A stretch of DNA of 64,000 nt from Pseudovirgaria hyperparasitica. Taxonomy: Eukaryota. The stretch lies in NCBI GenBank assembly GCA_010093815.1, contig ML996588.1; one strand, 5' to 3'. Made by a program: the position numbers and the translations under genes. Positions 26,834-55,337 of the stretch are shown here, piece by piece; within the stretch, counting starts at the first letter, position 1, and each line of letters opens with the position of its first letter. Under the pieces are notes generated by a model. It did not search any database. It was not told where the DNA came from and saw only the letters and a program-made list of their open reading frames with translations.

Positions 26834-28855
26834 TTATGCCTGACTCCTCTCTGTGAAGCGCACGACTATCGGTGCCTTCCACCACATTATATGGCAATGA
26901 CTGGCTCTCTCCCAATCGAGCTCCTTGTTGATGAGCTCCAAGTCATATCTAAACATGATTTTGGCCATCAGGAGCGACATCTGGACATATGCAAAGCTGC
27001 AGACGTGATCAGCACGTCATATCCATTCAGTATCCCAAGCAAGACGTCCGAATAGTGACTCACTTGCGACCCACACACGCACGCAGTCCCAGCGAAAACG
27101 GCTGGCTTGCCTCCTTTATATCGGCACAGTCTGGATCCGTCCAACGTTCTGGCTTGAACTTTTCAGGCTCATGAAAGTATGCTGCGTCATGCGTGACAGT
27201 CCAGGCGGAGGTATATACTTCAGTCTATGCTATCAAGTCAGTTGTATGATCTTGGTTCGATTGAAGTGTGATTATATGCTGACTCCTGCGGGAACGTAAA
27301 TCCCGTCGATCTCCTGTCCAGCACTTATACGAGGAAATCCCTGGCTGCCGGGCGGATGAATGCGTAAACCTTCATTAATGCAAGCTTGAAGATATGGTAA
27401 CTTTAGAGCCGAGCTGGAGTCGATGGCTTGATAAGAGGTGTATGCGGTGCGAACCTCATGCTGCAGCTTTTGCAGAGCTCTTGGGGTTTTGAGAAGGTAA
27501 TATGTTGTTGCTGCCATGCATGTAGAAACAGTTTCGCCACCAGCGATGCTAGACTATCTATTAACTGTGGAGTTTCCCGGGTATGTATGGAGACGTACAT
27601 GAGTGTGGAGGCGTGAGCGGTCATCTCCTCGAGAGATACCTCGCCGCTGCGGACCTTGTCGGTGATGTTAGTGAGAAAGTCTTGGCGATTGTCTGCACCT
27701 TCAAGACGACTGGTTCAGAGTCAATTCTCGGGAGTGTGGAAGAGAGTATTGGATGGAGAACCTACCGCTGAACTTTAGCTCGACTGTGTCCAGAGTGTTT
27801 TTTGCGAATTTTTACTGTGAGTCGTGGTAGGAGATATCTTCCAAGGATCTCTAAGAGCTTAATACGACGTAGATTATCAACGAGCGTGATCTCAAGGAGG
27901 TGCTCCAAGATGAGGTCGATCCAAAAATGGTGCTTCTCTGTTGCACAAGCTCGTCAGTAAACTTGAAGCCAGAAGGATCTTCTTTCTTACCCTCTCTCAC
28001 ACATCCAAAGCTTTCTCCAAAGGCCATTTCTCCTAGAATGTCGAAAGATACCATCTCATACCACTTCGTGACGTTCAGCCCATTGGTCAAACTCAGTGGA
28101 CCGATCTTTGCTACAAACTCATCAATGCATCTCTGAATAATTGGCTCTTGTGCATTTAAAGCCTTAAGCGAAAAAGCCGGTGTCAGGTTCTTCTTCTTCT
28201 GGGCGTGGACCTTTGGATCACGTTCACTGCCTATGCAGCCAGTTTTGAAGCCAGCGCCGTATATGTCGTAGAATTCACCCTTTATCAGTTGGGGCTTTCC
28301 AATGGCTGGGAAGCCATATATAGACTTCCACGATCCGGCAGACGCAAAAGACAATTCATTTGGGGATACTCGGAACACTGCCCCTATGGTAGCTGTCAGT
28401 ACGGTATCTAGACTAAGTGTAGATCAGTGTGAGTAGATACCATGCTTCTGGTGCATTCGTTGTATGCCTCGATGTGACCGGCCTCGGGTCGTGTGGTATA
28501 TTCTCCATAACTATGGTGTTTGTGTTGGCCGCAGCATTTGTCGGTATGCTTGGTATGACTATTGGCGAATGGGTATATAGCTTACCAGAGAGGCTCGGCC
28601 AAGAAATGGTCCGGGTATGTGAGACAGTGGATGGAAGTACAGATTGTACACAGCATGGGTGACAGTGTAGATGATAAGCTGTTTTCAGTGTCAGGCAGTC
28701 GAAATTCGGCGAGGCTCATGGTATGGGCTTACTGTAGAAATGATCATATGCATAATATATGGCTGAAAGTGGATTCTGAGAAGGGTTTGCAGCGATGTAA
28801 GATCAGTCAGCGGTATACTTAGAGAGTCTTGAACTTCACGCCATCGAGGTAACAT
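26834..28855 (-). CDS. Cytochrome P450 (CYP65/Tri11-like), cluster gene
   Basis: Exons give YNLYFHPLSHIPGP, RVSPNELSF, FDILGEMAFGESFG, AGGETVST, INEGLRIHPP, FKPERW and PFSLGLRACVG (heme Cys). Confidence 0.92.
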
Positions 28856-29814
28856 TTTGAAGATGGACAGTATGGTAAGTTAGCCTAATCTAGCGATAAT
28901 GTTGATCCACCTTGCAAGAAAGGATGGCCATGTAGCAGCATATACCTCTAACTTGAGCACTCACCAGCTCCATCTTCGGATTCAATGAATGAATCTTCCC
29001 CTTCAGGCGATTGGCATGAACATGTCTCGCCATATTATTCGGATGTCTGCTTTCGCTCAAAGCCAGCGTGTGATGAACGAGGCTGCATGCATGACTAGTT
29101 CAAGAGACACTTGATTGAGGGGACTAGCTGGAAGAATAGACATTTAAGCGAGGGCGCATCCGCAAGCATAGATAATCTAGCCACTTCCATAGGGTATTCA
29201 CGACGCCAAAACACGATGAAGACGGCTTACCGGTCGGGAACGGGATCGGCACCTACGATAGCCAGAGTATTTACCTCAAGCCAACGCCATGGATAACCAC
29301 TGACTGTACTAGCCTTGTCAAGTGGCGTCTACTGTCCAACATTCCACGTATTCACTGCTGCGCGGTGACTTATGGGCCTAGTGACTATCGCTGTCGTCTC
29401 TGTTGTGTTGTGACTACTATCGAATTGTGATATGCCAGGCTGGGGCGAGCCTTGGGCTGAGCTGCACCATACGTATCGCAGGCTTCTATGCATATTGCGG
29501 CTGACGACTTTTTGCCACGGAGTAATAGATACCCAACAGTCAGCAAATCTTGAGGGCTACCGTACCGAATTTATGTCCAAGTTGTGTGGAATCTAGGCGA
29601 TTATTAGGCTTCACATCCATACACGCTGTATCGTACACTTTATAATAACCCTCTTAGCCCAAATCTGGCGGTCTCTTCAATTCTCTTATAGAGAAGACGT
29701 GGTGGCGTACCTACTCGTTTCCTATCTTGGCAAAGCAGCATGTGGATTTCGATAGAACAACTTACTATACTAGACGGTTGACTCCACACCCTTAGCTTGA
29801 TCCTCTACCTCACC

Positions 29815-30508
29815 ATGTTCGGTACATGGAGATATGATCCGACAGACAACAAGCTAATAGGCATCCAAGATTCTAGCGTCAAAGCAAAGACATGGAATCG
29901 TGGCAAACTAAATTCTGCTTGTAAGGCATGCAAGGATAAGAAGGTTAGCTTTTGTATATCCAGAAATTTTTGCGCAAACCCTCCATTATTCCCCTACTTG
30001 ATCTCTCAATACTTGCTGACCAGGCTCCTGCGCTTTTTAGTTACGCTGCACAGCGCAGAGGACTGGCTGCGACAGATGCAAGGCGAACGGAACTACTTGC
30101 ATCTATGTCCCACGTCGAGCTTCGTCAAGAGCAACTACAAATCCGCATCGAGCAGAGGGTGAAAGTCATGGTGGACGTGAGAAAACAGTAGAGAAAGCCG
30201 ATAGCAGATACCAGAGTCGGAGCAGCTCTAGTCCAGTCGGTGATCCTTCAGAGTCAGAACAGCTCAATGGCGAATCAAGTACCCTCGCATCTGGGATGTC
30301 AATGTCTCCAGCTCCGAGTCTTGATTCCTTGCACTTTCTACAAGAAGCAATCCTTCCCAGTGGAAGTCTCGATATATTTGAAGTAGCGATGCAGCCAGAC
30401 TACAGCTTGGGGGGCGGGGGCCTGGAATTCGAGCTGTCTGATGACAATAATAATGAGGACAACGATGACAACGACAATGGTAATGCCAATTGCAACAGCA
30501 ACAGTATT

Positions 30509-30540
<32 letters not shown>

Positions 30541-31488
30541 TGTTAATGGCTTCCATGTGTTCGATCAAGACCAAGACCTCCTATTGTCAACCGAACAAGA
30601 TCTTGACAGTAAGTTCAATATGCTTTCGATCGCAATTTACAACATGACATTCCTTTTGCTGATATTCTTCCGATTACAGGCCTAGGGTTTCCTTTACCAA
30701 CCCCCAGTGATTCTACTAGCCCGCCCCGCTCCCGTACCGAGCGCCAACCACCGGCGCTAGCACTAGCTCCGGAGCCAGCTCCGGCACACTTATCCCTGGG
30801 CCCTGACCCTTTTACTTTCACTGGGAGCCCGCGTCCACGTCCGTCACACCATCGGCGGAACACCACTACAAACATCAAGGTCGCTACCTGCCCCTGCTCT
30901 TGTCTGCAGAACCTGGCTGCACTCCTAGAACGACTTATGCTTATGACCTCTGGCATATCCACACCACAAACCCAATCGCTCGATGTCCAACTTGCCATCC
31001 ATAAAGCAGCTTTAGCCCGCTGTGATGCAGTCCTCTGCTGCACTTTATGTGACACACGCTCTGAAAACACCATGCTGTTAATCACGGTCTGTGAGCGCAT
31101 TGTGGACATGTGTGCTAACATTGTTGATACCTACCACCTTCACCTCGATGCTGATCAAAGTGCCACTGCTTCGCTGGACTCGCTGCTACAAAACTCAGGT
31201 GCATCGGCACCTTCCATACCAGAGTCGGCTTCTTCGTCTAATACACTAGTCTCAGGTCCAGTTAGTCCTCTGTCTGTGGGGTCTTTTCAGATCTCGTCGA
31301 TGAATGAGTGGGCAGCGGTCATAAGGACCATCATCAGGCTTCAATTGCAGAGAATGGGGTCGCTACTTGGGCGTATGAAGTCTCTATCGACTGGAGAAGT
31401 GCAGGATGTACATTCAGATATGCTGAAGAAGCTTCGTGATAGGGTTCGGTCACTCTTACATGTAGCTGGAGGAGGCGACTTGGACTGA
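29815..31488 (+). CDS. Cluster-situated Zn(II)2Cys6 regulator with AflR-like C-terminal region
   Basis: MFGTWRY...ACKACKDKK|LRCTAQRTGCDRCKANGTTCIY six-Cys motif split by an intron. C-terminal region has CPCSCLQ...CDAVLCCTLC. An Asn/Ser-rich low-complexity tract lies at ~30440-30545. Confidence 0.9.
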
Positions 31489-31878: not shown

Positions 31879-33487
31879 CTATCTCAACGGGAATGGCTTA
31901 CCAAGTAGCCTATTCAAGGTACCATCTGGGTCGTACTTTCTTTGAATGTCCTTCAAGCGCTTCAAACTTGACCCATCCTTTCCATACGTTGGATAGGGAT
32001 CCTGGCCCGGCGAGGCGTCGTTCAGATAAATGTACGGATAGTCCAGGCCCAGCTTTTTGGTCTGCGCGAGGATAGATTTCCCAGCCTTACGAGAAAATTC
32101 CAAGACCTTCGCGTCATCGGCCGGGTTCGTCCACGATGTAGAAATGAGTCCGGCGATGAATGTTCCCTTGCCAGGATCCAGGTCAATTGGATTGCCACCC
32201 GCAGCGCGAGATGCCTCAAGCCAGGCCTTTGAGACTGGCTGATATGTGAGCGTGATAGCGCAATTGGTTACATCCTTTAGCCCAGTCAGTGAGGCTGTGA
32301 TGACGGTCTCGTTAACGAGGGCGAAGGTCCGCGCATCAGCCTTAAAGGAGACCGAGTAAAACAGCTGTCGTAGGTTGCGGGATGCGAACTCAGGAGTGTT
32401 AAGGGCATTGGCCAGAAACGTCCAGCTATCTCTTGGGCCAAAATCGTGGACTAGGCTTGGTGCGTTGATGGCGGTGAAGTTCTCAAAGGATTTGGGAGAA
32501 ACATCTCTGCCGGAACGGAAACCCAGGAATATAGACTCGACAACTTCATCGGATGGGGTTGCGGCGATGATCATACTGATGGCTGCATCGGCGTCTTCTA
32601 CGCCGCCTCCTGGTGCCATATATGAAACGGCAGCCTGAAAGAACGCAGGAAGGGATTCGCGCTTCCAGATAGCTGCACCAGCCCATGCAGGGCCTGCGGT
32701 GAATGTCTGTACATCGAAACGAGTTACAATACCAAAATTGTTGGAACCACCCTTGAGAGCCCAGAAAAGGTCGGGATAGGCGGTCTTTGTCGCGTATACA
32801 ACACGGCTGTCTGGTAGCACGACTTCATATCCTACAACACCATCAGCAGCCCACCCCTTGCGAGAAGCAAAATAGCCGATGCCACCGCCTAGGAGCACAC
32901 CACCAACGCCCACAGAGCCATAGCGACCGCCGTTGACAGCAAGACCATACGGGGCGATCCAGTTGTATACATCAGACCAAACCTGGCCGGGCCCTATGCG
33001 AGCGATGGATTTGTCGGGACTCAACTCGCGGCCGTTCAAAGCTGACAGGCTCACCAAAATACTGTCGTCACTTTCTTGTGCCCCGGGAACTGGCATGTGA
33101 CCCCCAGCCCGAACAGTGAAGGGGACACGAGCCCCTCGCATGATTCGAAGACCATCAGCAAGATGGCGGGCTGAGCGTGGTAAAAAGACGCACTTCGGCT
33201 CCGCAAGGCAGGTCTGTGACCACACAACTAACAGACGTTGTCAGCATGTGCGAACATGAGCATAAGATAGATAATGACACACGCGCTGTCTGATTGTGGT
33301 AAATCTGCGAATCTTCCTCGAAGAGCGCGTCTGGTTGCAGACTAGCTAATGACTTGCATGCAATCTCACTGCCAACTGGACCTGCAGACGAACGATCTGC
33401 AAGTGTAGACACTGCGGTAGGTATCGCAACAGCGGACGATTCAAATAAGCTTATAACGCCTACTAAGAGAGAAAGGAACGTCTTCAT
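31879..33487 (-). CDS. Signal-peptide-bearing FAD-linked oxidoreductase (BBE-like), cluster gene
   Basis: Signal peptide MKTFLSLLVG, RAGGH flavinylation motif, VGVGGVLLGGG, LFWALKGGSNNFGIVT and YLNDA...YDP; one intron near 33220-33280. Confidence 0.92.
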
Positions 33488-34277: not shown

Positions 34278-35254
34278 ATGGCTACCGCCTTCAATCCCAA
34301 GACTGACATCCCCGACCTAACCGGCAAGGTCATCTTCATTACCGGAGGTAACACTGAGAGAATTCAAGGCCCTCATAGTCAAGGAGGTGTTGACAAAGGC
34401 TTTCAGGTACCGCGGGTTTAGGAGCTGAGGCTACCTACCAATTAGCCGTGCACAACCCAGCTCGAATTTATATCAGCGGCCGGAATGCAAAAAGAGCTGC
34501 TGTCGTCATTAAAAAGGTAGAAGAGCTTGGCTCTAAAAGTACGGTCCACTTCATTGAGCTCGATCAAGGCAAAGTGTCCAGTGTAAAAGCAGCCACAGAG
34601 CGCTTCGTCGCTCAGGAGTCGCAGCTCGACATTCTGATCGCCAATGGCGGTATCATGGCTGTTCCGGCTGGTCTTTCAAGCGATGGCTACGAGGTGCAAT
34701 TCGGCGTCAATCATATGGGCCACGCCATGCTCGTCAAGCATCTCCTGCCACTCCTACAGCGTACAGCGGAGAAGCCAGGCTCAGATGTGCGAATCATCTT
34801 CCTCACATCCCTCGGATTCCAATTCGCACGTAAAGGTATTGCATATGACACCCTCAAAACAACACAAGATGCCGCGGTCCTAGGGCTCTGGATCAGGTAT
34901 GGCCAGAGCAAGCTTGCAAACATCTGGTACGCGCGAGAGCTCGCGAAACGGTATCCGTCCATCACAAGCATCTCAGTCCATCCTGGAGTTACCAAAACCG
35001 ACTTGGTGGGACAACTATCTCTTGCAAACCGCCTCTTTGTCTATGCGACCAACATAGGTAGTATGGTCGAGCCGCACGAAGGCGCATACAACATGTGTTG
35101 GGCCGTGGGAGTGGACAAGGCCAAGCTGCAGAATGGGCATATGTACGAACCAGTGGGAAAAGCCACAAAACGATTGGATGCGAAGCCTTTTAATGACGAC
35201 GAGGCGGCCGAGAAGCTGTGGACGTGGACTGAGAGGGAATTGGGGGCTTCTTAA
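34278..35254 (+). CDS. Short-chain dehydrogenase/reductase (retinol-DH-like), cluster gene
   Basis: ITGG|TAGLG Rossmann motif across an intron, ANGG, VNHMGH, catalytic YGQSK and VHPG. Confidence 0.92.
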
Positions 35255-35469: not shown

Positions 35470-37298
35470 TTACTCTGCCCCATTCAACTGCGCATGCGGA
35501 GTCAGATAAACCTTGACGTCTTCTGGTGGCGTCAAAGTGACTGGGCTACCTCCTGCTCGCAATCTCAACATCTTCTCGACTTCCGCACCATCAAGGTCCT
35601 TAGCCAATCGCAACGTATGCTGTTCCAACAGGCACGAGAAAAAGGCAATGAATTCCACCTGTGCAAAGCGCTTCCCGAGGCATGCCCTTGGGCCTTCGTT
35701 GAAGGTCATGAATGAGCCGCGCTGGTGACTAGGGATGGTGTTTGTACCTGCCTCCACCTCTGCGAGATGCTGAGCAGATGGGTTATTCGGGTCGAACGCA
35801 TTTGGGCTACTGCAAAGCCACCTACGAGGATCTATGACGGCTGGCGATGGCCAATGCGTCGTGTTGTAGTGTATCCCCGTGATGTTGATCACAACCCCTG
35901 TGCCTGGAGGTAGTGTTGCGCCGTTGAGAACTTCCGATGTGGTCGGAGGTGTGACACGACCGATAGGTATGACGATGGGGAAGACCCGCATCACCTCGTA
36001 CATGAACGCCAGTAAGTAGCGGAACTTGGGGAGGTCATGGTCGAAGCAGAGACTTTTGCGCCCTGCAGTACGCGCCATGGCGTGTATACGGATGTTCTCT
36101 GCAATGACAGCGTCCTGAATGTGTGGATGAAGCGTGAGGATCAAAGAGCTGTATAGGATAGTGTTTGCTGTAGTGTCGTAGCCTTGCGAATGTGAGTTGT
36201 AATCAGGTGATTGCACGAGAAAGTTCGAGACTTACCTGCAAGCAGGAAAATAAAGACGTTTCCTTTGATCTCTTCATCCGTTAAGCTCAATCTTCCTCCT
36301 GGTCCTTTCATAATTTGTTTCTCTCTCCCGCTTGAGTCATTTTCCTTCAAAACAGCAGTCAGGAGGTTTCCCTTCGCTAGCCCGTCGTCCCTTTGTCCAT
36401 TGTTCATTCTGCGTTTCTCCTCTTCCAGAAGTTCGTTCATATACTTCTCATACTCCGAGTAGGCCTCGTAAACATGTTTCCAAGGTCCATATCTGAGGAT
36501 GAGCTTTGGAATTAAGAGAATCAGTGGTAAGTTCATCACAACCCCGTATATCGCTTTAACTAGTGTAAGGCTATGGCCAGCCGGTATAGCATTCGCGTCA
36601 TCAGTCCATTCTGCCTGCTGCCCGAAGGCAACACAGGACATAACATTGACAGTGAGCAAGTAGATGTCCGATTTCAGGCTCCGAGATCCATGTTCCGCCC
36701 ACGACGTTATCAGCATATGAGTCTGACGCATCGTTTCGTCCCAGACCAGTCGATTAACTGCCTCCCCAAAAGGAGGTAGCGTGATACGAATATGGAACCT
36801 CCAAATGTCACCTTCTGTGGATACCACGTTCGGACCGAAAGGCTCTAGCATTTCTATGGAACATCAGTCGTCATCACTACCCTAGCCATCTGAGAACACA
36901 CTCATCTTCTCTGCCGGTTTGATGAAACTTTTTCGCTTCTGGGCGACCTGCATCGCAACCTGGGCATTCCCTACGTAGCAGATGATCCCACCAGGAGATA
37001 CAACTAGAAATACGTCGCCATACTCGGCGTGTGCTCGCCCTTTGTCTTCGTACATCCATTCACGTATCATGAAGCGTGCCCAGCGTGGCCAACCATCGCC
37101 TCTCATGAGGTAAGAGCCCAGCGCCCATCGCAGGATGGGATCAGTCAAGAATGATATGGTCTGGAGTTCGATGACGGGAGAATACGTGTATGGAAGACCA
37201 GTCGCTTTTGCCTTCTGCACGAATTCATAGAAGAAGTACAAAGTACGGATGGCTTGCACGATGACAATTAGCAAGACGATGTTGATGTACGAGAACAT
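35470..37298 (-). CDS. Cytochrome P450, cluster gene
   Basis: N-terminal membrane anchor, FLLA|GYDTT I-helix, YEVMR, DPRRW and FNEGPRACLG heme motif; two introns. Confidence 0.92.
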
Positions 37299-43517: not shown

Positions 43518-44541
43518 CTAGCGGAAGTCCGTAGCCGCCTGTTGCAGCCTCGTCAGCTCAAGGTTCGACCGACCAAACCAGAACGGACGCAGCTCAGCCA
43601 ACGGCCCTTCCATCTCTGTGTACTGATCTCCGAGTGTGAGGATGACTCGCCCATTCCATCGTTCTTCCGCCAACGCATCTTTCTCGGTCTCCTTTCCGTA
43701 GGGTTCCACCCTCCTAGCCTGCTTTGCCGTCGCCGAAAAGACTAAAGCAAGACCAACAAAGTGAGCCGAGCTCACCGGCAAGCCCATCGCGATGATAGGG
43801 GCAGCAAGGTCCTGCGGAAGTAACTTTGTGATCGTCGCGGCGGGAGCAACACCATTGATGGTGATATTGTCTCCGGCGATGATAGATCTAAGAGCTCGAA
43901 TCAATCCAATGAGCTTGCATGGGCGTCAGCAAATGCAAAATGGTACCGATCAATTTCAATCCTGCTCAATACATACTCCATGCTTGGCTCCTGCATAGAC
44001 CGGTAATGACTGCTCCGGAGCGTACGCAGTCGCACTGGTAGTCAGGACGATACTTCCAGCAACACCATGCGCCTTCATAGAGCTCCAAGCAAGCTTGATG
44101 AGGTTGATTGGTCCTTTGAAGTTAACATCGAGTATTCGATTGCTAGGCTCCAGGAGATTTCCCTTATCGTCGAATGTATCTGCGAAATAATTCGTCTCCT
44201 CGGTCACACCAGCATTGGCGAACGCGTAGTCAATCCGCCCAATTTCAGCAAACTTGTCCCGCAGCTGTGCCCAGTCTGAAATATCGACGACATGGAATAT
44301 TATGTTCAGATGGCTCTTATGTTCCTCGCTATCTGGTAGTGAGAGGTCTAGGACATGGACTGTAGCGCCCTTGGCCGCCATGATGCACGCAGCTGCATAC
44401 CCAATACCGGACGCACCACCTGCAAGATTATTTACTTTGCAAATAACTCTCTCCAGTCTTTTACAGTAACTTACCTGTAATGAGGGCAACTCTATTACCT
44501 AATTCTGGTATCAAGGATTCCCTAATGTTGATCGAAGTCAT
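43518..44541 (-). CDS. Short-chain dehydrogenase/reductase (15-PGDH-like, Prx4-like), cluster gene
   Basis: [37 protein letters not shown], catalytic YAGAK and VAP; two introns. Confidence 0.92.
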
Positions 44542-44970: not shown

Positions 44971-46660
44971 TCATGGCCTAGCTACAGCTCTCACTATCAA
45001 CTTAGGCTTATTCCACAACGTTCTCATCCGCACATCCCTCTGCCAATCAACCTCCTCGTTGAGAAGTTCAAAGTCGTATTTCCAATGTAATTTTACCAAC
45101 GTCGTCCGCAGTTCGACCCAAGCAAGACTAAGTTGACATATTAGCGGAGAAAAGGCAATACTGGGACTTAACCAAGATTTGCCTTACTTTCGACCAATAC
45201 ATGCTCTTGCCCCAAGTGAGAATGGCTGGCTGGCTTCCACGACATCGATCTCGTTCTTCCCTAGCCATCGTTCGGGTTTATACTCCAGTGGATCTGTGAA
45301 ATTGCTTGGATCCAGGCTCGCGGCAAGTGGGTTGACTGACACAATTGTTCCCTCTGGCAGAAAGTGACCATCAACGGTGTCCCCACCACGAGGCACCACG
45401 CGCGGAAGGCCTAATGGCAGAGGGGGGAAGATTCGGAAAGACTCTCTGATCACCGCATCAAGATATCGCAACTTCGATGTTGACTGCGCAGTGATACTTT
45501 CGTATTTGTCGAAGGTCGACCGAATCTCTCGCTGAAGTGACTGTCGGACACTGGCATTCTTCAGGACATAGTAGAAGATGCATGTAAGTGCTGTTGCTGT
45601 TGTCTCACTCCCAGCAACTATGAAGTCTGAAGAATGCGCAGCAAGCTGAACATCGGATACTTCGACTGAATTGTGCCGCTCCAATATTCGTGTCATAAAG
45701 TCCTTACGTGTCGTACGTTTCGCAATTCGTCTATGGTGTGACGAACGTCAACAGCGCACTGCAATATGACAGTTGTTGGGCTACTTACTTCCTTACGAGG
45801 TCCAAAGCCATCCCTTCGTTCTTTTTCGTATCTTGAACGATCTTGGCCATTTTGCCTGGAAACAGTAATACAAACACCCTAGCAAATGTTGGCATTCGGC
45901 TGAAAGCATCGGCGAGTGCACCTTGTGTTAGCGCACCGAGCGTAATAGCGATCCAGGGATGGACATTGCCACTTTCCACCCCACCGAATGACTCTCCAAA
46001 AGCAAGATCCCCGATGATATCAAAAGTCATCATTTCGAATGCTTTACCAATGTCGAAACCATGAACGCCCTGCTTCCCAGTCATATCGACTAGCATGTCG
46101 ACTGTTTTTGAGATCAAATGTTCTTGTTCGCTCAAAGAAGCATCTGAGAAGGCATGTGATAAGTATCTTCTCATCTTCCCATGAGCGATGGGGTCGCGCT
46201 CGCTCACGATGCTACCGCATTGATCAGCAAAGGGGCCGCCTTCGTAGAAACTGCTCTTAATGAAGGTCTGGTGTCCGGGACGGAAGTTATATATATCTTT
46301 CCAAGCCTGAGCACTGTTGAATGATAACTCGTTTGGCGCAGTTCGAACGACAGCACCGTATTTTCGATGCAGAGCCAAAAGTTTGTGGGGCTGTCGGCCG
46401 CCCATGTACCATAAAATATACGGAACATTGCTCAGAGCCGCTAACCTTGGACCAGGGAACTTCTTCAGAGGATGACGGTGAGATTTGTAAAGAGTATGTA
46501 AAGCCCATTGTACGACGTACTGGTCATATTAGAGACGCAGGAGTCAGCCATCTAACATGATACTCACACAAATGGCAAACAGCACAGACAGATCGAGTGC
46601 GAGACGCCCAGGCTTGACCTGTTCAAAAACATGTTGCGGATTGACACGAAACTGGCGCAT
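44971..46660 (-). CDS. Cytochrome P450 (CYP65/Tri11-like), second copy in cluster
   Basis: HPLKKFPGP, RTAPNELSF, FDIIGDLAFGESFG, AGSETTAT, RESFRIFPP, YKPERW and PFSLGARACIG; three introns. Confidence 0.93.
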
Positions 46661-47239
46661 AGCTAGCACCTGGCTGATTGAATGTAAATGTTCGAGAAGG
46701 AACAGCGTATTCGATTGTCACTGACGTGCTCCGCCTACATTCTATCTCTAACCGAGAAGATGCTCGATCGCCGGGAAGGATGCAGCAACGGAGGTGCTAT
46801 ATTAGGACACCCCACGCCCCCTAACCCTCGTAACGGATGTCTTGATCCATACAGCCGACAACAATCCGGCCTCACTTTACTACCCAATCAAGATATCGAC
46901 TTCGGAATTATACGATTGGTCTTTGCTGACTGCGATATTGCTCACGGATGGTTTACTCTCGCCAATACTGCCCGTGGTATCCGATTGACTCCATCTACAC
47001 CTACCGAAGGCGTGAGGAGGCGTCCCAGAGACGCATGAATGAAATTTTCTGATTCGTCTTCATAACACAACGCCCTCTTCCTCGTTCTACCATGTCGACT
47101 TTTCATTAAAGCCGCTCCGCTGTGCTTCCCGTCATTATTGCGAACACCCACCTCTCCATATATATTGCCATTCTTAGCTACTACTTGCGTTCTACGGGAC
47201 CCCATGTGTCTTCATAATTTCATGACTTTGTGAATGATC

Positions 47240-50200
47240 ATGCATTACAATGGCGCTCCAGTTGACAGCCAAGATGGTCTGAAGGCTAGCCTTGACGGGT
47301 TCAGCTCTACCTTAAGCAGGGCAACGGAAGAGCACACTCACAACCACAAGAATGGTGCAAGAAAAGAATCGCAAACCAATGGGTGGACAGATAGCACGAA
47401 TGGGACCCCATGCGGGATGCCAAGTATTCCCATAGCGATAGTGGGGATGAGCTGTCGATTCTCTGGCGGAGCGTCGAACCCTCAGAAACTTTGGGATCTT
47501 GTGGCTCAAGGACGGTCAGCATGGTCAAAGATTCCTGCTTCCCGGTACAATAGCACGGCCTTTTATCACCCTCATCCGGAAAAGCTTGGCACGGTGAGCG
47601 CTCCGTGAACTACTAGTAGCCTTCACTGACGACTGCATAGTCAAACGTGGAGGGGGGATACTTCCTCGAGGAAGATGTCAGCTATTTTGATCTCTCGTTC
47701 TTCAGTTTCTCTGCTGAAGTTGCCGCTGTAATCGTCCTTCGACATGCCTTGAAACGTGAGCATAAGCTGAAGTTCATATAGTGCATGGACCCTCAAATCC
47801 GCATTCAGCTTGAGTTGGTATATGAAGCCCTGGAAGATGGTACGTCATGCGATAGATGACAAGACTCTTATGTAACTAATGGGTTTCAGCTGGCATACCA
47901 TTGTCAAAGATTGCGGGAACCAATACCTCTTGTTTTGCTGGAACTTTCATCAGGGATTACCATGACCTCTTGATGAGAGATCCTGCAACCCTGCCTCGAC
48001 ATTTCACCACTGGTAACTTTACGGCCATGGTCGCCAACAGGATCTCCCACTTCTTCGATCTGCGTGGACCCAGCACCTCAGTTGACACGGGCTGCTCGAC
48101 ATCTCTCACAGCTTTGCACTTGGCATGTCAGACAATCCGCACGGGCGAATCTGACTGCTCAATTGTCGGTGGCGCTTGCGTGATGTCAAATCCAGATATG
48201 TTTTGTCAACTTTCAAGCCTCGGATTCATCGGCATAGATGGTAAATCGTATTCTTTTGACCACCGTGCACAGGGTTATGGTCGTGGAGAGGGTGTCGCCA
48301 CCTTGGTCTTGAAGAGATTGGATGATGCAATTAGAGACCGTGACCCAATAAGAGCGGTGATTCGAGAAACTGGTCTCAATCAGGATGGCAAAACGCCGAC
48401 CCTGACATCCCCTTCCGGGGAGGCTCAAGAATCCTTAATGAGGGACTGCTATCGGCGAGCCGGGCTCAATCCCCTCGATACAACTTATGTAGAAACACAC
48501 GGTACCGGCACGAAGAAAGGTGATCCTGTAAGTGATGATCCGTACTATTCATTCATCGTGCAAATCTTACAGCAGGTGTAGATTGAAACAACTGCGATTG
48601 GTAAAGTGTTCGGAAGGCCAAGCACTATCGAACCTCTACTCATTGGATCCATCAAATCCAACATCGGACACACAGAGGCTGCCAGTGGGATAGCATCCAT
48701 AATCAAAGTAGCTATGGCGTTCGAAAATAGACAGATACCACCTAGTATCAATTTTGAGAAACCAAACCCGCTGATTGATTTCACCAACCTCGGGATTCAG
48801 CCTGCTCGCAGTCTTGAACCTTGGCCAGAATGTGATATTCGGCGAGCCAGCATTTCCAACTTTGGCTATGGAGGTTCCAACACGCATGTCATCATGGAGG
48901 ATGCTGCTTACCACAGGGAGGACCCCCCGATGAGTACGGAGAAATATGCCACGCCACGAAAGGTGTTCATCTTGAGTGCACGTGACAGGGAAGCTGCGAG
49001 CACTATGCGATCCAAGTTGAAAGACTATATACTAGCAGCGGTCGAACGTAGCGAAGATATTGATTTCTCAGATCTCGCGTATACTCTAGATCAACGACGG
49101 TCAAAGTTCTCTTGGACAACAGCCATCACTGCTGGGACTGTAGGCGAGCTCATCGATGGACTCAAGGACGCTACTCTCAAACCTTCAAGCGTGCTCTCGA
49201 AACCCCGGGTTGGCTTCGTCTTTAACGGACAGGGTGCCCAATGGCATGCTATGGGCAGAGAGCTGATGCAGACCTATCCAGTCTACACTGAAACGCTACA
49301 AGAAGCAGACGCTGTCATTAAGAGCTTTGGCTCAACTTGGTCTGTTGTAGGGGAGCTCTCCAAAGAATCTGATCATACGCGGGTCAATGAAGTCACCTTC
49401 AGCTTCCCACTGTCCTGTGTGGTCCAGCTAGCTCTTGTCCGTCTTCTATCTTCCTGGGGCATCAAACCGTCTGCAGTTACTGGTCATTCCAGCGGCGAGG
49501 TCGCGGCAGCCTTTGCAGCCGGAGCCTTGAGTTTCAAGGAGGCTATCGCAGTCACTTACTTCAGAGGTCTACTAACGGATCAGTATGTCGTCAAGGCCAA
49601 GAGTCAAGGTGGTATGCTTGCTGTCGGTCTAGGCGCCGCAGAAGTCAACGAATACCTTGGTAAGCCATTGCCTGGAAAGGTCGTTGTAGCCTGCGAGAAC
49701 AGTCCGTCGAGTGTGACGCTGTCTGGTGATGTGAGTGCTATCGATGCGCTGGAGGTCTTATTTCGCGATCGGAAGATATTTGCGCGAAAATTGAAGGTCG
49801 CAGCCGCCTATCACAGCCATCATATGCTCCCAATCGCAGAGGGCTACCATGCTGCACTCTCAGAAAATATGGACTTAAAAGGATCATTCGGTGATGTTCT
49901 CTTCTCCTCGCCAGTGTCCGGCTCGTGGATCTCAGATGTCGAGTCTCTGGGACCTTCACACTGGGTCGAAAACATGATGAGGCCAGTGCTATTCACTCAA
50001 TCACTCTCAAACATGATCGCTGGTCTCACAGAATCCAACCCCTTAGGGCAGAACGTAGATTTTTTAGTCGAGATTGGTCCTCATGGAGCACTTAGCGGCC
50101 CAATCCGACAGAACATCACACATGCTAACCTCAAGCACCTCAAGTTAGATTATGGGTCATGTCTGACCAGAGGACAGGATGCTGTTAGCACAATTCAGCA

Positions 50201-53200
50201 GCTAGCCGCGCTCCTCGTATGCAGAGGATACCCTGTGGACTTGGCCAACGTCAACTTTCCAAAGGGTTTACACGGTCTGAAAGCCCTGCCTAGTCTTCCA
50301 TCGTATCCTTGGAACCACACCACTAAGTTCTGGGCCGAGCCTCGTGTAAGTCGAGAGCATAGGTTCAGAAAACATGCTTCGCACGACCTGCTCGGCGTCC
50401 GGGTCCCCGGTGCTAACCCGTTCTCTCCTTCATGGCGGCACATTATCCGAACAGGTGATATTCCCTGGGTACGCGATCACGAAGTGCAGTCGAATATCGT
50501 TTATCCGGGCGCTGGATGTATCGCAATGGCCATTGAAGCCATGCGTCAGCTGTCTTTGGATGAGGGCAAGACCATTACTGGCTACAATCTTCGTGATATA
50601 CAAATCACCAGGGCGCTAGTGATTCCTGACACGCCTGAAGGGATCGAAGTGCAGCTAACACTCTCGGCACCAGACGACAAAGCCTTGATGGGGGATTGGC
50701 GCAATTTCCATGTCTACTCCGCGCTCTCCAATGGCGAGTGGGCCGAGAATTGCAGCGGATACATCGCCGTCGCGGTAGAGCATGTGCGCAATTCTATCAA
50801 CAACATCCCTCCTGAAGCATCAAAAGGCCATCTCACAAGCTCTGTGGAGCCTAGTGCTCTATTTAAAAAATTACACCAGGCTGGCGTACGTCATGGTCCT
50901 TCGTTCCAGAACCTTATGACAATTGAAGTCGGACATAGCAAGTCGAGGGCAACATTCAAAGTACCTGATACAGCATCCCTGATGCCATCGAACTATCAAA
51001 GCCGTCATGTGATACATCCTATCACTTTAGACGCCGTGTTCCAGGTCGCTTATTCCACTTTGACCGTGGAGCAGCAAGATAGGGTCGGGGCTGCGGTACC
51101 AAGATCTATCACAACAATGTACATCTCGGAAGAGATCAACAGTAATCCCGGTGATGTACTTATAGCTTGCTCAGATCTCTTGCATGTAGATCGTCAGGGA
51201 TTTGAAACAAGTATACTGGTGACAGGCACAGATTCAGTGGCACCACTTCTGCAGATAGGCGATATGCACTACCGCAGTCTCGGGTTGAGTCTTGAGTCCC
51301 AAGATGAAGAAGAGGTAGACCTTTGCTTGACAGTCAACTGGGTCCCTAGTCTCGATCATGGCGATCTGCAAGAGCTGCATGGGACGTTGTCATATGCAGT
51401 CGATATCGACGAGAAGATTATAGGAGAAGACTTGACTCGAGCGACTTATCACTTCATTCATGACACTATCAATGCCCTGAGCGATGAAGATATCTCCGGC
51501 CTAAAGTCCCATCACGCAACATGGCTGGATTGGATGCGCCGTATCGAAGCGCAAGCTATGAACAATGAGCTTGCTCCTAAAAGCTCTAAATGGCCCGAAA
51601 CCAGCGATGGTGTCAAACAGATGCTCTACGACCGAGTTGCTTCTCACAGCGTCAATGGGCAGATGCTTGTACGTCTTGGGAAGCATTTCGTCAATATCAT
51701 GCGCAACAAAGTCGAACCTTTGGAGATCATGATGGAGGGCCAACTGTTATACAAATTTTATCGTGAGATGTTACATTTTACTCGGTCCATCCTGCAAGCT
51801 GTGGAGCTACTAAAAGTCTATTCTCGGCAGCATCCCTGTGCCAATATCCTGGAGATAGGCGCCGGAACCGGGTCATGTACAGGACCTGCCTTATACGCTC
51901 TTGGTGGCAATACGGATAACTCGAAACCTCAATTCGCACATTACGAATTTACAGATATTTCCTCTGGGTTCTTCGGTGAGGCAAGAAAGAACTTTGCTGC
52001 CTGGGGCGATCTTGTCACTTACCGGACGCTTGACATCGAAAAGAGCCCTGAAGAACAATCCTTCCAGCTTGCGACGTACGATGTTATCATAGCATGCCTG
52101 GTCTTGCATGCAACAAAAGATATTGACAATACGATGAGGAATGTCAGAAGTCTACTCAAACCTGGTGGCAAGTTGATTCTTGTTGAGACTACACAAGACT
52201 CAATCGACGTAAATATGATATTCGGCTCACTGCCTGGCTGGTGGCTCAGTAGGTCACTGTCGCTGCATATTTAATGAAATCTGCTGACCCCATCTGAAGG
52301 TCAGGAGTCGGAGCGAAAGCATAGCCCCAACCTTAATCTTGACATGTGGAAAGACGTACTCCCGCGAACGGGCTTTTCCGGAATTGACTTCGATGTTTGG
52401 GACTGCGAAGATGCCAAGCATCGATCAATGAGCGTTATACTATCCACGGCAGTCCCGGAGAACGTTGTTCAATTCCCGACGAAGATCTCTCTGATACACA
52501 GTGACGATACTCCGCCTGAAGCTTGGCTACGGACACTCTGTGACGCTTTCCAGAAGGTAACGGGTAGTGTGCCCATGATAGAACGGCTGGAGGACTTGAG
52601 ATCTGACGGTAAAGCTTGTGTGTTTGTCACTGAGATGTCTACGCCCACCTTGAGTAAGATGAATGAGACTCAATTTGAGGCTATCAAGGGCATGGTTGGA
52701 AATTCTAAGGGCTTACTCTGGGTCACAAGGGGCGCGACCGGAGGTTGTGTCAATCCAGAGCTGAGTTTACACTCTGGACTACTACGTGTGAGAAGGGTCG
52801 AGGATGCAGCGAAGAAGTACATCTCCCTCGATCTCGACCCGTCAGAGGAAACCTTTACAGTCGCCAACGCACACCATATCGCGAGCATTTTCAGGCACAC
52901 TTTTGATGAAAGTCGCGCCGGTGACGAGATAGAGACCGAGTATGCAACCAGGGCGTCACGTGTACTCATACCTCGTGTTCGCTTCAGCCGCCCCGAAAGT
53001 GAAGACGCGCTCAATCCAAAGGATCGCCCGGCTGAGCTACAGCCCTTCCAGCGACCTGACCGTAGATTACGCATGTTCGTAGACACGCCTGGTTCTCTGG
53101 ACAGTATCTTGTTCAAGACTGATCCTCAAGACGATGATTATCTGCCCTGCAACTTCGTTGAGATCGAAGGCAAGGCATTTGGCCTCAATTTCCGTGATGT

Positions 53201-55337
53201 CATGGTAGCGATGGGGCAGCTGAAGGAGAAGAACATGGGCTTCGAATGTGGCGGCGTTATCACTCGAGTCGGCTCTGCAGTCTCAGACTTCGAGGTCGGC
53301 GACCGCGTCTGCGCTCTTACGGCTCATGGTCACTGGGCCAGTCGAAGTCGTGTTCCATCAACCTCTTGTGCTCGGATCCCCCCTTCGATGAGCTTTGAAA
53401 CTGCAGCCTCCATTCCCATGGTCTTCCTTACGGCGTATTATTCACTGTTCGAGGCTGGACGGCTAGAGAGAGGTGAATCGGTTCTGATACATGCCGCTTC
53501 TGGTGGTGTTGGTCAAGCTGCTATCATGCTCGCTTCATTGAAGGGTGCAGAAATATTTGCTACTGTTTCGACAAAAGAGAAGCGCGAATTCCTTAAGCAT
53601 ACGTACCATTTGGATGACGATCACATATTTTCAAGTCGTACTGCTTCGTTCGCGACGGACCTCAAGGTGGCGACTGGTGGAAGGGGTGTCGACATCGTCC
53701 TCAACTCTCTCGCCGGTAAGCTCCTGGACGAAAGCTGGCATTGCTTAGCCCCATATGGCCGTTTCATTGAGCTTGGCAAAAGGGATATCCAGTCGAACAA
53801 ACGACTAGAGATGCAGCCATTCGGCACCGCAGTTTCTTTTGTGGCATTCGACCTGATACACCTAAGCGACTACAGACCCGCAGTCGTTTCTCGCATGCTG
53901 AATCATATCCTGCAGCTTCTAGGAGAAGGACTGATAACCACAATCTCACCAATTAAAGTGTCCCCTATCTCGGACATCGTCCGCGCGTTTCGTACGATGC
54001 AGGCTGGTAAGCACGTCGGAAAGATTGTGCTCCGTGTTGGAGAGGAAGATGTAGTATCGGTAAGCACATCTTAGATGAACCCGACGAAGTGGCTAATTAG
54101 AAAACAGGCAGTGCCAGATTGCAAGCATACACGGTTGTCACCGGATGTAACCTACCTTCTCGTCGGGGGTGTCGGAGGCATTGGTCGTTCACTGGCCCGC
54201 TGGTTCGTGGCCCATGGAGCGCGCTACCTTCTTCTGCTATCGCGCAATGCTGCTTCTAGATCCGAGTCTGAGCAGCTCATCGAATCACTCAAGGCCGATG
54301 GCTGTATAGTCTTGGTCAAGAACTGCGATATCGCGGATAAAGAAAGCCTTGCCACTGTTGTGCGGGACTGTGGTACAGTTCTTCCTCCTATCAAAGGACT
54401 TGTACAGGGAGCAATGGTCCTTCAGGTAAGCAAAGTTAAATCATTCTGCGTTCAGCTCGTTTCTCTTTCCCCCGTATCGTATCTGACCTTCTCCCAGGAT
54501 TCTATATGGGAACGAATGACCTTTGCGAAGTGGCGGGCGGCAGTCTCCCCGAAAGTGGCTGGTTCGTATAACCTGCACGCCCAGTTTGCGGACTCTCTCG
54601 ACTTCTTCATCATGCTCTCCTCAGTTGCCGGTTTCATTGGGAATGCGAGTCAGGCGAATTATGCGGCTGGTAATACCTACCAAGATGCTCTTGCCCGCCA
54701 CCGCACCTCGTTGAACCTTCCTGCGGTATCCATCGACCTCGGTCTGGTCAAGGAGATTGGCTACGTATCCGAAAATAAAGAGCTAGGCGAGCGCCTCCTC
54801 AGGGACGGTCACCGCGCCCTCGAAGAGAAGGAGGTCCTTGACCTTGTTTCAGCTGCTATACGTAATCCATACCGCGCTCTCAACGCAAGTCAAATCATTA
54901 CTGGCCTTCTTCCAATCGCCGTGCCGCAGCAGACTCAAACTGGGTGGCGCGCCGATCCACGTTTTGTTGGTCTGAAGCAGCAGGCACGTTCCAAAAGTGG
55001 TATGTGCCAGGGCTATAATACTGCCACGGGTACCATCACGCTTAGTCTGAAGGACCAGATAGGCGGGGCCGAATCAGAGATTGATGCGGTGAATGTCCTC
55101 ACGCGTGCTATCGTGGCGAAGCTCGCAGAGATGTTTCTGATCCCAGAGGTAGATATAGATGTTTCGTTGCCTCTGGCGAAGTACGGCGTGGACTCACTAG
55201 TGGCGGTGGAGATGCGGAATTGGCTGGTTGCGGCTACACGGTGTGAGGTATCGATCTTCGACATCCTGGGATGTAGTAGCCTGAGAGAATTGGCTGGGAA
55301 GGTTTCCGGGAGGTGTAAAGCCTTAGGAAAGAAGTAG
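47240..55337 (+). CDS. Highly reducing iterative type I PKS (KS-AT-DH-CMeT-ER-KR-ACP), no release domain
   Basis: [47 protein letters not shown]. CMe[47 protein letters not shown] shortly before the stop. About seven GT-AG introns; no frameshift seen. Confidence 0.96.

What the first reader, a model, noticed from the sequence alone, without database searches (positions are those of the whole stretch)
26834..55337. Intact hybrid cluster: aristolochene synthase + HR-PKS + acyltransferase + four P450s, predicting a polyketide-esterified eremophilane
Seen: 11 contiguous genes in ~28.5 kb (P450, Zn2Cys6 TF, FAD oxidase, SDR, P450, acyltransferase, aristolochene synthase, P450, SDR, P450, HR-PKS) with catalytic motifs present. 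Known: the PR-toxin pathway uses aristolochene synthase with SDRs, a FAD oxidase, P450s, an acetyltransferase and a regulator, but no PKS. Eremophilanes carrying methyl-branched acyl esters are known fungal metabolites (integric acid, eremoxylarins, dendryphiellins, KM-01). Inference: a PR-toxin-like core whose acetyl group is replaced by a dedicated polyketide chain. The compound class has precedent; whether this gene set and product are characterised cannot be told from the sequence.
Basis: partly seen in the sequence, partly recalled or inferred. Interest (0 to 1): 0.88.

Follow-up and report, generated by a model that had tools for sequence, protein, structure and literature searches.

The report
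Eremophilane–polyketide hybrid gene cluster, known type
This is an intact fungal gene cluster that should make an eremophilane sesquiterpene carrying a polyketide ester, but clusters built this way have already been described in other fungi, so it is a new example and not a new kind.

Summary
All 11 read as complete frames through GT-AG introns, and their catalytic motifs are present.

The cyclase matches solved Aspergillus terreus aristolochene synthase over its full length (E 4.6e-138). The synthase is a complete KS-AT-DH-CMeT-ER-KR-ACP highly reducing PKS with no release domain. Beside the cyclase sits a TRI101/BAHD-type HxxxD acyltransferase.

The sources name the window's own proteins as Pseudovirgaria hyperparasitica.

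The reading, a polyketide-esterified eremophilane, is supported, but the architecture is in print:
- The putative eremoxylarin cluster of Xylaria hypoxylon (Sun 2023).
- "Group C" eremophilane clusters, 37 plus 7 hybrids, defined by a PKS with an HxxxD acyltransferase (Shi 2026).
- A similar Annulohypoxylon cluster (Kuhnert 2021).

Homologous P450-SDR-P450-acyltransferase-PKS blocks also occur in metagenome contigs.

Still open: the product, the acylated position, and whether the PKS-acyltransferase step works, which the papers I read do not report testing.

Verdict: new member of a known kind, with modest interest.

The parts
26834..29033 (-). g1, cytochrome P450 (498 aa, 9 exons)
   Evidence: The deposited protein P0142 maps exactly onto the window. 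Heme motif FSLGLRACVG, EGLR and AGGETV are present. It is 67% identical to a Xylaria acuta P450 and 36% to PR-toxin ORF11. g1-like P450s lie beside the acyltransferase and PKS in L002 and L003.
29815..31488 (+). g2, Zn2Cys6 transcription factor (474 aa in my model)
   Evidence: After removing the intron at 29944-30040, the motif CKACKDKKLRCTAQRTGCDRCKANGTTC appears. Pfam on a single exon was weak (E 0.079). The second intron is predicted only.
31879..33487 (-). g3, FAD-linked oxidase (517 aa) with a signal-like N-terminus
   Evidence: FAD_binding_4, E 1.4e-27. Complete frame with one intron. A 43%-identical fragment lies at the edge of L003.
34278..35254 (+). g4, short-chain dehydrogenase (305 aa)
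   Evidence: adh_short, E 4.2e-17. TGGTAGLG and YGQSK are present after the 59-nt intron. The start codon is uncertain; 34188 is the alternative.
35470..37298 (-). g5, cytochrome P450 (575 aa)
   Evidence: P450 Pfam hits on two exons. AGYDTT, EVMR and FNEGPRACLG are present. The intron position and the AGYDTTANTI stretch are shared with the L003 homologue. Identity to L002 and L003 is 45-52%.
37741..39213 (-). g6, BAHD/TRI101-like acyltransferase (about 490 aa, no intron)
   Evidence: PF02458 with PF22664. H and D of HSAIDG are invariant in 22 aligned homologues. Best solved match is trichothecene 3-O-acetyltransferase 2zba, E 1.7e-16. The deposited model P0001 starts 31 codons further upstream, at 39306.
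39615..40797 (-). g7, aristolochene synthase (341 aa in my model)
   Evidence: Full-length match to A. terreus aristolochene synthase 2e4o (E 4.6e-138) and to the P. roqueforti enzyme 1dgp (E 9.2e-112). DDLLE and NDIWSFEKE are present. DDLLE depends on using the acceptor at 40416.
41236..43107 (+). g8, divergent cytochrome P450 (584 aa in my model), divergently transcribed from the cyclase
   Evidence: Pfam P450 hit on the C-terminal exon only. The heme cysteine sits in YGGGVFMCPG, and the I-helix has no acid-alcohol pair (sequence; regexes). Homologues of 550-585 aa are 41-54% identical. The Cercophora homologue OQA88_2951 is next to cyclase OQA88_2952, and the A. granulosus homologue is on the acyltransferase contig.
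43518..44541 (-). g9, short-chain dehydrogenase (301 aa), the conserved partner of g10
   Evidence: adh_short, E 3.1e-21. TGGASGIG and YAGAK are present. It is 53-69% identical to the SDR parts of models that fuse an SDR with a g10-type P450 or with a cyclase in other fungi.
44971..46660 (-). g10, conserved eremophilane-cluster P450 (507 aa)
   Evidence: The deposited protein P0133 maps exactly. It is 57% identical over its full length to P. roqueforti PR-toxin ORF11 and 60-70% to homologues that share a contig with a cyclase in at least 19 cases. FSLGARACIG, ESFR and AGSETT are present.
47234..55337 (+). g11, highly reducing PKS (2575 aa, 8 exons): KS-AT-DH-CMeT-psiKR-ER-KR-ACP, no release domain
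   Evidence: Pfam domains. All seven introns are skipped in run contigs. Motifs present: [40 protein letters not shown], the KR tyrosine and GVDSL. Identity to the PKS next to the acyltransferase in L002-L004 is 42-57%.
55338..64000 (.). AT-rich, RIP-like block that closes the cluster on the right
   Evidence: GC is 0.21-0.30. TpA/ApT is 1.5-2.1 and (CpA+TpG)/(ApC+GpT) is 0-0.05, against 0.72 and 1.26 inside the cluster. The only frames of 70 aa or more lie at 56798-57035, across the run of 10 N at 56909.

Best explanation
This is a functional-looking eremophilane biosynthetic gene cluster of the PKS-bearing type that Shi et al. 2026 call 'group C'. The sources name the organism Pseudovirgaria hyperparasitica.

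Proposed route:
1. g7 cyclises farnesyl diphosphate to aristolochene. Close homology to the solved enzyme is shown here; the product is inferred from it.
2. The conserved pair g10 (P450) and g9 (SDR) installs the C8 oxygen and ketone, giving the common enone intermediate. This is inferred from orthology and from the published role of the 'common P450 and common SDR'.
3. P450s g1, g5 and g8, the FAD oxidase g3 and the SDR g4 oxidise ring A and the isopropenyl side chain. This is inferred, and no position can be assigned.
4. The HR-PKS g11 builds a reduced, probably methyl-branched acyl chain. The intact CMeT, ER, KR and DH motifs are shown here.
5. The PKS has no release domain. I infer that the HxxxD acyltransferase g6 moves the chain onto an eremophilane hydroxyl, giving an acyl-eremophilane of the integric acid, eremoxylarin or dendryphiellin kind.
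6. g2 is the pathway regulator (inferred).
For: - All 11 genes are present in the stated order and read as complete frames.
- The cyclase matches solved aristolochene synthases: E 4.6e-138 for A. terreus and 9.2e-112 for P. roqueforti. Both metal-binding motifs are present.
- g10 is 57% identical to PR-toxin ORF11.
- g9 is 53-69% identical to the SDR halves of 13 models that fuse an SDR with a g10-type P450 or a cyclase.
- g10-type P450s share organism name and contig length with a cyclase in at least 19 cases (hand count across). Locus tags are adjacent or nearly so in Hypoxylon sp. CI-4A (322581 and 322583) and Drepanopeziza (007997 and 007994).
- Cyclase and acyltransferase are 1-5 accession numbers apart in Arachnomyces, A. 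cavernicola and Xylariaceae sp. FL1272.
- In 2 of the 4 metagenome loci found with the acyltransferase (L002, L003), a g5-like P450, a g9-like SDR, a g1-like P450, the acyltransferase and a PKS are contiguous. In a third, L004, the acyltransferase is followed by the PKS. The fourth, L001, is 2.1 kb and holds only the acyltransferase.
- The PKS domain set and active-site motifs are complete, and its seven introns are confirmed by contigs.
- Print precedent: Sun 2023, Shi 2026 and Kuhnert 2021.
Against: - No chemistry is known for this organism. Among the 24 papers that hold 'Pseudovirgaria' (23 titles and abstract starts listed, one passage read), none of the listed titles concerns eremophilanes.
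- In the two papers read (Sun 2023 in full, Shi 2026 in part), the PKS-to-acyltransferase hand-over is not reported as tested. Shi 2026 says the order of the tailoring steps is not established.
- The deposited cyclase model reads DVDLLE, not DDLLE. My DDLLE depends on an acceptor 3 nt downstream that no read supports.
- The contigs laid over g5, g8 and g10 carry introns of the opposite strand and leave the shown g10 sense introns in place. They give no support for the tailoring-gene models.
- I could not match any P450 to the published key enzymes XhL4 or XhR1, because no reference sequence could be reached.
- The window's acyltransferase groups, with weak support (81), beside a Eurotiomycete clade and not with the Xylariales clade. 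Its acceptor position may therefore differ.
Confidence: 0.8

Rival explanations
1. Two independent pathways lie side by side: an ordinary eremophilane cluster (g1-g10) and an unrelated HR-PKS whose product is released and used separately. The acyltransferase would then use acetyl-CoA or another small acyl-CoA, as in PR-toxin.
For: The PKS sits at the far end of the cluster, 8 kb from the acyltransferase and next to a RIP-like block. BAHD/TRI101-type enzymes normally use acyl-CoA donors (recalled). The best solved matches are CoA-dependent acetyl- and hydroxycinnamoyl-transferases.
Against: Homologues of the acyltransferase and of this PKS are directly adjacent in 3 of the 4 metagenome loci found; the fourth is too short to tell. 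Shi 2026 report 37 plus 7 clusters that pair a PKS with this acyltransferase type and link them to C1-O-acyl eremophilanes. The PKS has no thioesterase or reductase domain to release its own product.
Confidence: 0.08
2. The cluster is intact on paper but silent or decaying in this strain. The cyclase may be mis-spliced into an inactive DVDLLE form, antisense transcripts may cover the tailoring genes, and RIP may be advancing from the right flank.
For: The tandem CAG/TAG acceptor in the cyclase gives DVDLLE if the first AG is used, as the deposited model does. Opposite-strand GT-AG joints lie inside g5, g8 and g10. An extreme RIP signature begins one base after the PKS stop.
Against: All 11 frames are open and all motifs are kept. 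RIP indices inside the cluster are normal, at 0.72 and 1.26. PKS transcripts are correctly spliced at 7 of 7 introns. The first AG lies only about 6 nt from the CTGAC branch site, which favours the second AG; the spacing rule is recalled.
Confidence: 0.1
3. The cyclase makes a sesquiterpene other than aristolochene, such as valencene or another eudesmane- or eremophilane-type olefin. The product would then not be an eremophilane.
For: Terpene synthase products can change with a few residues (general knowledge). Shi 2026 has a section heading on valencene-derived metabolites (outline; section not read).
Against: Gap-free full-length alignment to A. terreus aristolochene synthase apart from the splice-site Val. 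The cluster also holds the P450-SDR pair that accompanies aristolochene synthases in many fungi.
Confidence: 0.04

Closest known systems
Putative eremoxylarin cluster of Xylaria hypoxylon (xhR3-xhPKS; Sun et al. 2023) and the 'group C' eremophilane clusters of Shi et al. 2026
   Same: Both have an aristolochene synthase, the common P450 and SDR, further P450s, a PF02458 HxxxD acyltransferase and an HR-PKS. The predicted product is an O-acyl eremophilane.
   Different: The window's acyltransferase is only 43-45% identical to the Xylaria ones and falls outside their clade. The host is a Dothideomycete rust hyperparasite. If the published gene names are positional, gene order differs: here the acyltransferase and the PKS lie on opposite sides of the cyclase. 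I could not test orthology to XhL4 or XhR1.
PR-toxin cluster of Penicillium roqueforti (ORF1-ORF11)
   Same: Both have an aristolochene synthase (E 9.2e-112 to the solved P. roqueforti enzyme) and an ORF11-type P450 (57% identity). Both also have SDRs, an FAD oxidase, an acyl/acetyl-transferase and a regulator.
   Different: The PR-toxin cluster has no PKS. Its product carries an acetate on C3. The window has no gene beyond the 11, so nothing is left over for the ORF7-type protein (the ORF7 family is recalled, not tested).
hrPKS plus aristolochene-synthase-like cluster of Annulohypoxylon truncatum (Kuhnert et al. 2021; passage read)
   Same: Both have an hrPKS, a cyclase similar to aristolochene synthase, an acyltransferase, P450s, an FAD enzyme and oxidoreductases. 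That paper describes it as fumagillin-like in logic.
   Different: That cluster has two acyltransferases and three P450s. The window has one and four. A. truncatum cyclase and g10-type P450 share one contig (353,509 bp); whether they belong to that published cluster was not checked.
Fumagillin (Fma-TC, Fma-PKS, Fma-AT) and lovastatin (LovF with LovD) acyl-transfer logic (recalled, not tested here)
   Same: A release-domain-free HR-PKS hands its chain to a discrete acyltransferase, which esterifies a separately made core.
   Different: The terpene or polyketide core is different. LovD belongs to a different enzyme family, as Shi 2026 also note. No sequence comparison was made here.

Membership tests
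Aristolochene synthase (class I fungal sesquiterpene cyclase) | Full-length similarity to biochemically and structurally characterised aristolochene synthases | tested here: met
   E 4.6e-138 to A. terreus 2e4o over residues 34-338, and E 9.2e-112 to P. roqueforti 1dgp.
Aristolochene synthase (class I fungal sesquiterpene cyclase) | Aspartate-rich DDxxE motif and NSE triad NDxxSxxxE | tested here: met
   DDLLE and NDIWSFEKE are present in my model. DDLLE needs the acceptor at 40416. The deposited model reads DVDLLE, with the Val aligned to a gap in the solved enzyme.
Aristolochene synthase (class I fungal sesquiterpene cyclase) | Product is (+)-aristolochene | not testable with these tools
   Needs expression and GC-MS.
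Group C eremophilane cluster (Shi et al. 2026) | Core set: cyclase, common P450 and common SDR | tested here: met
   g7, g10 and g9. g10 is 57% identical to PR-toxin ORF11. g9 is 53-69% identical to SDRs fused or adjacent to g10-type P450s or cyclases. My mapping of ORF11 to the papers' 'common P450' is my own reading of gene numbering and is not confirmed.
Group C eremophilane cluster (Shi et al. 2026) | Polyketide synthase (Emp12) in the cluster | tested here: met
   g11 is a complete HR-PKS, 574 bp from g10.
Group C eremophilane cluster (Shi et al. 2026) | PF02458 acyltransferase with an HxxxD motif (XhL1 type) | tested here: met
   (H and D invariant). Identity to a Xylaria hypoxylon homologue, E0Z10_g3637, is 43%. 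Whether that protein is XhL1 is not known.
Group C eremophilane cluster (Shi et al. 2026) | Key P450 Emp6C (XhL4 orthologue) | not testable with these tools
   No XhL4 sequence could be reached. g1 and g5 are candidates only because their homologues sit by the acyltransferase and PKS in L002 and L003.
Group C eremophilane cluster (Shi et al. 2026) | Group-C-specific P450 (XhR1 type) | tested here: inconclusive
   g8 lies next to the cyclase, as the name XhR1 suggests. A g8 homologue is adjacent to the cyclase in Cercophora sp. LCS_1. No comparison with XhR1 was possible.
Group A (PR-toxin type) eremophilane cluster | Emp6, Emp7 and Emp8 together, without a PKS | tested here: not met
   A PKS is present. 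All 11 genes are assigned to other families and the gaps between genes are 216-790 bp, so there is no candidate for an Emp7-type protein. The Emp7 family itself is recalled, not tested.
Fungal highly reducing PKS | KS-AT-DH-(CMeT)-ER-KR-ACP with active-site residues | tested here: met
   Pfam domains and motifs. The DH motif reads [10 protein letters not shown], which is HxxxSxxxxP where HxxxGxxxxP is usual.
BAHD/TRI101-like acyltransferase (PF02458) | HxxxD catalytic motif and a DFGWG-like structural motif | tested here: met
   HSAIDG and DLDFG are present. PF02458 E 7.7e-21. Solved TRI101 E 1.7e-16. Whether the acyl donor is CoA or ACP cannot be tested here.

The most novel reading that the evidence does not exclude
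The cluster belongs to a separate lineage of PKS-bearing eremophilane clusters. Its acyltransferase groups with a Eurotiomycete clade and not with the Xylariales group C clade. A rust hyperparasite would use it to make a not-yet-seen acyl-eremophilane, perhaps acylated at a position other than C1, that acts in mycoparasitism. The opposite-strand spliced transcripts over three of its four P450 genes would be part of how the cluster is kept off in culture.
Probability: 0.25. Interest if true: 0.45.

Novelty: new member of a known kind. Interest (0 to 1): 0.3.

Why it matters
Acyl-eremophilanes include integric acid, named in a cited title as an HIV-1 integrase inhibitor, and the antibacterial eremoxylarins.

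The step that joins the polyketide to the terpene has only been proposed in the papers I read. A compact, intron-mapped 28.5-kb cluster with one acyltransferase and one PKS is a convenient system for testing that step.

A producer that parasitises rust fungi would add an ecological angle.

As genomics it is an expected member of a catalogued cluster class, so it does not change what is known.

Tried and rejected
**Rejected reading**
- PKS pseudogene. The frame from 47880 to 55337 has in-frame stops. They lie in in-frame GT-AG introns, and run contigs skip those introns.

- No whole genome is held for this window.
I could not see the list of 371 clusters or the reference accession numbers.
- A search of the metagenome records behind L002 and L003 for a cyclase was not possible. 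Whether those contigs hold one is unknown.

**Sequencing runs**
- No RNA holder is listed. The two runs are of unknown kind and come from one sample and one study.
- I read their contigs as transcript assemblies only because they skip GT-AG stretches.
- The cyclase region (39.4-41.4 kb) has almost no cover in those contigs. That is no evidence about expression.

**My own methods**
- My first gene finder mis-spliced the cyclase and g1, g2, g4, g5, g8 and g9. I replaced those models by hand curation and exact mapping of deposited proteins.

**Mapping to the published X. hypoxylon gene names**
- This failed. The X. hypoxylon acyltransferase homologue (g3637, contig 185,177) and the g10-type P450 (g3715, contig 180,659) are on different contigs.

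**Trees**
- The cyclase tree used 41 of the 78 hits, picked for named and diverse organisms. It left the window's cyclase in an unresolved fork.
- The acyltransferase tree used 33 of the 53 hits. I dropped P0015, P0018, P0020, P0022, P0028-31, P0034-36, P0039, P0040, P0042, P0044-47, P0052 and P0053 as near-duplicates or unnamed. It gave only 81% support for the window's placement.

**Other searches**
- Earlier notes of this scan held nothing relevant.
- PMC13293291 mentions eremoxylarins only as background.

Full report
**1. What is there**

The window is fungal DNA with short introns. GC is about 0.49 up to 55.3 kb and then drops to 0.21-0.30.

The transcription factor was the only weak one (Zn_clus E 0.079 on one exon). 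With a 97-nt GT-AG intron removed, its N-terminus reads as a perfect Zn2Cys6 motif, CX2CX6CX6CX2CX6C.

**2. Intactness**

The PKS frame has in-frame stops, which could suggest a pseudogene. Each stop lies in an intron whose length is a multiple of three.

Contigs of two public runs skip seven GT-AG stretches in the PKS: 47594-47640, 47728-47781, 47840-47889, 48528-48581, 52249-52299, 54060-54107 and 54426-54497. The runs are of unknown kind and come from one sample and one study. With those seven introns removed, the PKS is one open frame of 2575 codons.

My first automatic models were wrong in several places. I corrected them in three ways:
- by reading the three frames;
- by mapping four deposited proteins of the window exactly onto the DNA;
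- by comparison with homologous loci.

The final models give 11 complete frames, and every intron is GT..AG.

Motifs found:
- Heme-binding cysteine, ExxR and I-helix motifs in g1, g5 and g10.
- TGxxxGxG and YxxxK in both SDRs.
- HxxxD and a DFGWG-like motif in the acyltransferase.
- DDLLE and NDIWSFEKE in the cyclase.
- In the PKS: the KS cysteine and histidines, AT GHSSG, CMe[19 protein letters not shown], the KR glycine motif and tyrosine, and the ACP serine.

g8 is an atypical P450. Pfam matches only its C-terminal third. Its cysteine sits in YGGGVFMCPG, and its I-helix lacks the acid-alcohol pair (sequence; the regexes found none).

**3. A weak point in the cyclase**

The intron between the two aspartates of the first metal-binding motif ends in a tandem acceptor, CAG then TAG. 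The deposited model uses the first AG and reads LFLTDVDLLEF. The second AG gives LFLTDDLLEF.

In the alignment to the solved A. terreus enzyme, the extra Val faces a gap. The first AG is also only about 6 nt from the CTGAC branch site. From a recalled spacing rule, that favours the second AG. No contig covers this junction, so the choice is inferred.

**4. Identity of the parts**

*Cyclase.* It matches A. terreus aristolochene synthase at E 4.6e-138 over residues 34-338, and the P. roqueforti enzyme at E 9.2e-112.

*Acyltransferase.* Its best solved relatives are trichothecene 3-O-acetyltransferases and plant hydroxycinnamoyl transferases. In an alignment of 22 homologues, the H and D of HxxxD are invariant.

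*g10.* It is 57% identical over its full length to the P450 that UniProt names PR-toxin ORF11 of P. roqueforti. It has 60-70% identical homologues across three fungal classes (558 proteins at E <= 1e-15 among 4340 candidates, 120 listed).

I matched organism name and contig length between the listed cyclase hits (78 at E <= 1e-20 among 249 candidates) and the listed g10-type hits. By hand count, at least 19 contigs hold both. For small contigs and adjacent locus tags this shows clustering (Hypoxylon sp. CI-4A 322581 and 322583; Drepanopeziza 007997 and 007994). For megabase contigs it shows little.

*g9.* It is 53-69% identical to the SDR parts of 13 proteins that are, or contain, an SDR joined to a g10-type P450 or to a cyclase. 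These fusions are probably annotation errors across neighbouring genes. So g9 and g10 are the conserved pair that Sun et al. call the common SDR and common P450, to which they assign the C8 oxidation.

*g8.* It has 41-54% identical homologues. One is next to the cyclase in Cercophora sp. LCS_1 (OQA88_2951 and 2952). Another is on the contig that holds the acyltransferase and the g10-type P450 of A. granulosus.

*g1.* It is a paralogue of g10 (42% identity over the aligned N-terminal exons). It has a 67% identical relative in Xylaria acuta.

**5. Is the PKS part of the pathway?**

A scan of metagenome contigs with the acyltransferase alignment gave 4 loci out of 147 pattern matches.
- In L002 and L003, a g5-like P450, a g9-like SDR, a g1-like P450, the acyltransferase and a PKS lie in one row. 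The PKS is 42-46% identical over the large blocks.
- In L004, the acyltransferase is followed by the PKS.
- L001 is too short to tell.

Cyclase and acyltransferase are 1-5 accession numbers apart in Arachnomyces sp. PD_36, Aspergillus cavernicola and Xylariaceae sp. FL1272.

The PKS has no thioesterase, reductase or other release domain. A trans-acting transferase is therefore the simplest way to free its product.

**6. What is in print**

*Sun et al. 2023* (PMC10686045, whole main text read; figures and ESI not seen) found one aristolochene cluster in each of four fungi. [quoted passage not shown] The paper's Fig. 1 legend also lists an acyl transferase (AT) among the genes of the four BGCs. 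They expressed P450s and other tailoring genes, but not the PKS or the acyltransferase.

*Shi et al. 2026* (PMC13736955; outline, sections 5, 6 part 1, 10, 11 and passages read; supplements closed) sorted 371 clusters into groups. Group C (37 clusters) and BC hybrids (7) are defined by the P450 XhL4, a PKS and a group-specific P450, with an HxxxD PF02458 acyltransferase. They link these clusters to integric acid, eremoxylarins, xylarenals and related compounds. They state that the order of the tailoring steps is not established.

*Kuhnert et al. 2021* (PMC8403587, passages only) noted an hrPKS plus aristolochene-synthase-like cluster in Annulohypoxylon truncatum.

The architecture is therefore known. 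Its key coupling step is still only proposed in what I read.

**7. The organism and this particular cluster**

The sources name the window's own cyclase, g1 and g10 proteins as Pseudovirgaria hyperparasitica, on a 329,896-bp contig.

The word 'Pseudovirgaria' occurs in 24 papers of the library (23 listed). None of the listed titles deals with eremophilanes, and the word does not occur in the main text of Shi 2026. I cannot say whether the cluster is in that paper's supplementary list.

The window's acyltransferase is at most 53% identical to any other protein found (53 hits among 7930 candidates). In a tree of 33 of those hits it sits, with 81% support, beside a clade from Aspergillus, Penicillium and Arachnomyces. 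The Xylariales and other Sordariomycete sequences form a separate clade with 100% support.

The cyclase tree is unresolved for the window.

**8. Borders**

On the right, a RIP-like block starts one base after the PKS stop. TpA/ApT is 1.5-2.1 and (CpA+TpG)/(ApC+GpT) is 0-0.05. The thresholds of about 0.89 and 1.03 are recalled. Inside the cluster the values are 0.72 and 1.26.

On the left, the next frames with Pfam hits are ABC ATPase domains without membrane domains, a PEBP protein and a BBE-like oxidase at 17-19 kb. I do not count them as part of the cluster.

No transporter gene lies within 26.8-55.3 kb.

**9. Verdict**

The finding is real and well read. It is an intact PKS-bearing eremophilane cluster. 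The kind is already described, so it counts as a new member. Modest interest attaches to the untested acyl-transfer step, the unknown product and the host's lifestyle.

Noticed in passing
window 36192-36245, 42314-42366, 45584-45641 (also 36527-36660/3, 37321-37376, 37441-37493, 44825-44875): Run contigs skip canonical GT-AG introns that lie on the strand opposite to P450 genes g5, g8 and g10, or (37321-37493) just upstream of g5. The shown pieces over g10 keep its sense introns. One contig runs unbroken, apart from the skipped introns, from 43416 into the spliced PKS. Two of the three best-supported antisense introns overlap the sense intron, and in g8 the antisense donor GTCAGC is the reverse complement of the sense branch site GCTGAC. 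The strand is my inference from the splice dinucleotides.
   Followed up: partly
window 40416-40421: There is a tandem CAG/TAG acceptor in the cyclase. The deposited model uses the first AG and so inserts a Val inside the DDxxE metal-binding motif. The solved A. terreus enzyme has no residue at that place.
   Followed up: yes
window 41236-43107 and 37741-39306: The deposited g8 model (452 aa) starts at residue 133 of my 584-aa model, while homologues are 550-585 aa long and align from about residue 24. It also differs from my model somewhere else that I did not locate. The deposited acyltransferase model (521 aa) starts 31 codons before the methionine where most homologues begin.
   Followed up: partly
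window 55338-64000: This is an AT-rich block with an extreme RIP-like dinucleotide bias, beginning directly after the PKS stop. It has a run of 10 N at 56909, and the only frames of 70 aa or more lie across that run.
   Followed up: partly
window 851-9568: This stretch holds a Fungal_trans transcription factor, an AtuA-family protein (E 8.8e-121) and a CoA-transferase family III fragment. They could form a small catabolic gene group unrelated to the finding.
   Followed up: no
window 17203-19248: A BBE-like FAD oxidase (FAD_binding_4 with BBE) lies 8 kb left of the cluster. PEBP and ABC-ATPase genes separate it from the cluster.
   Followed up: no
proteins P0132, P0137, P0138, P0150, P0166, P0185, P0096, P0098, P0099: Many public fungal gene models fuse the g9-type SDR with the g10-type P450 or with the cyclase; one model holds three P450 segments. 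These are probably annotation run-throughs of neighbouring cluster genes.
   Followed up: no
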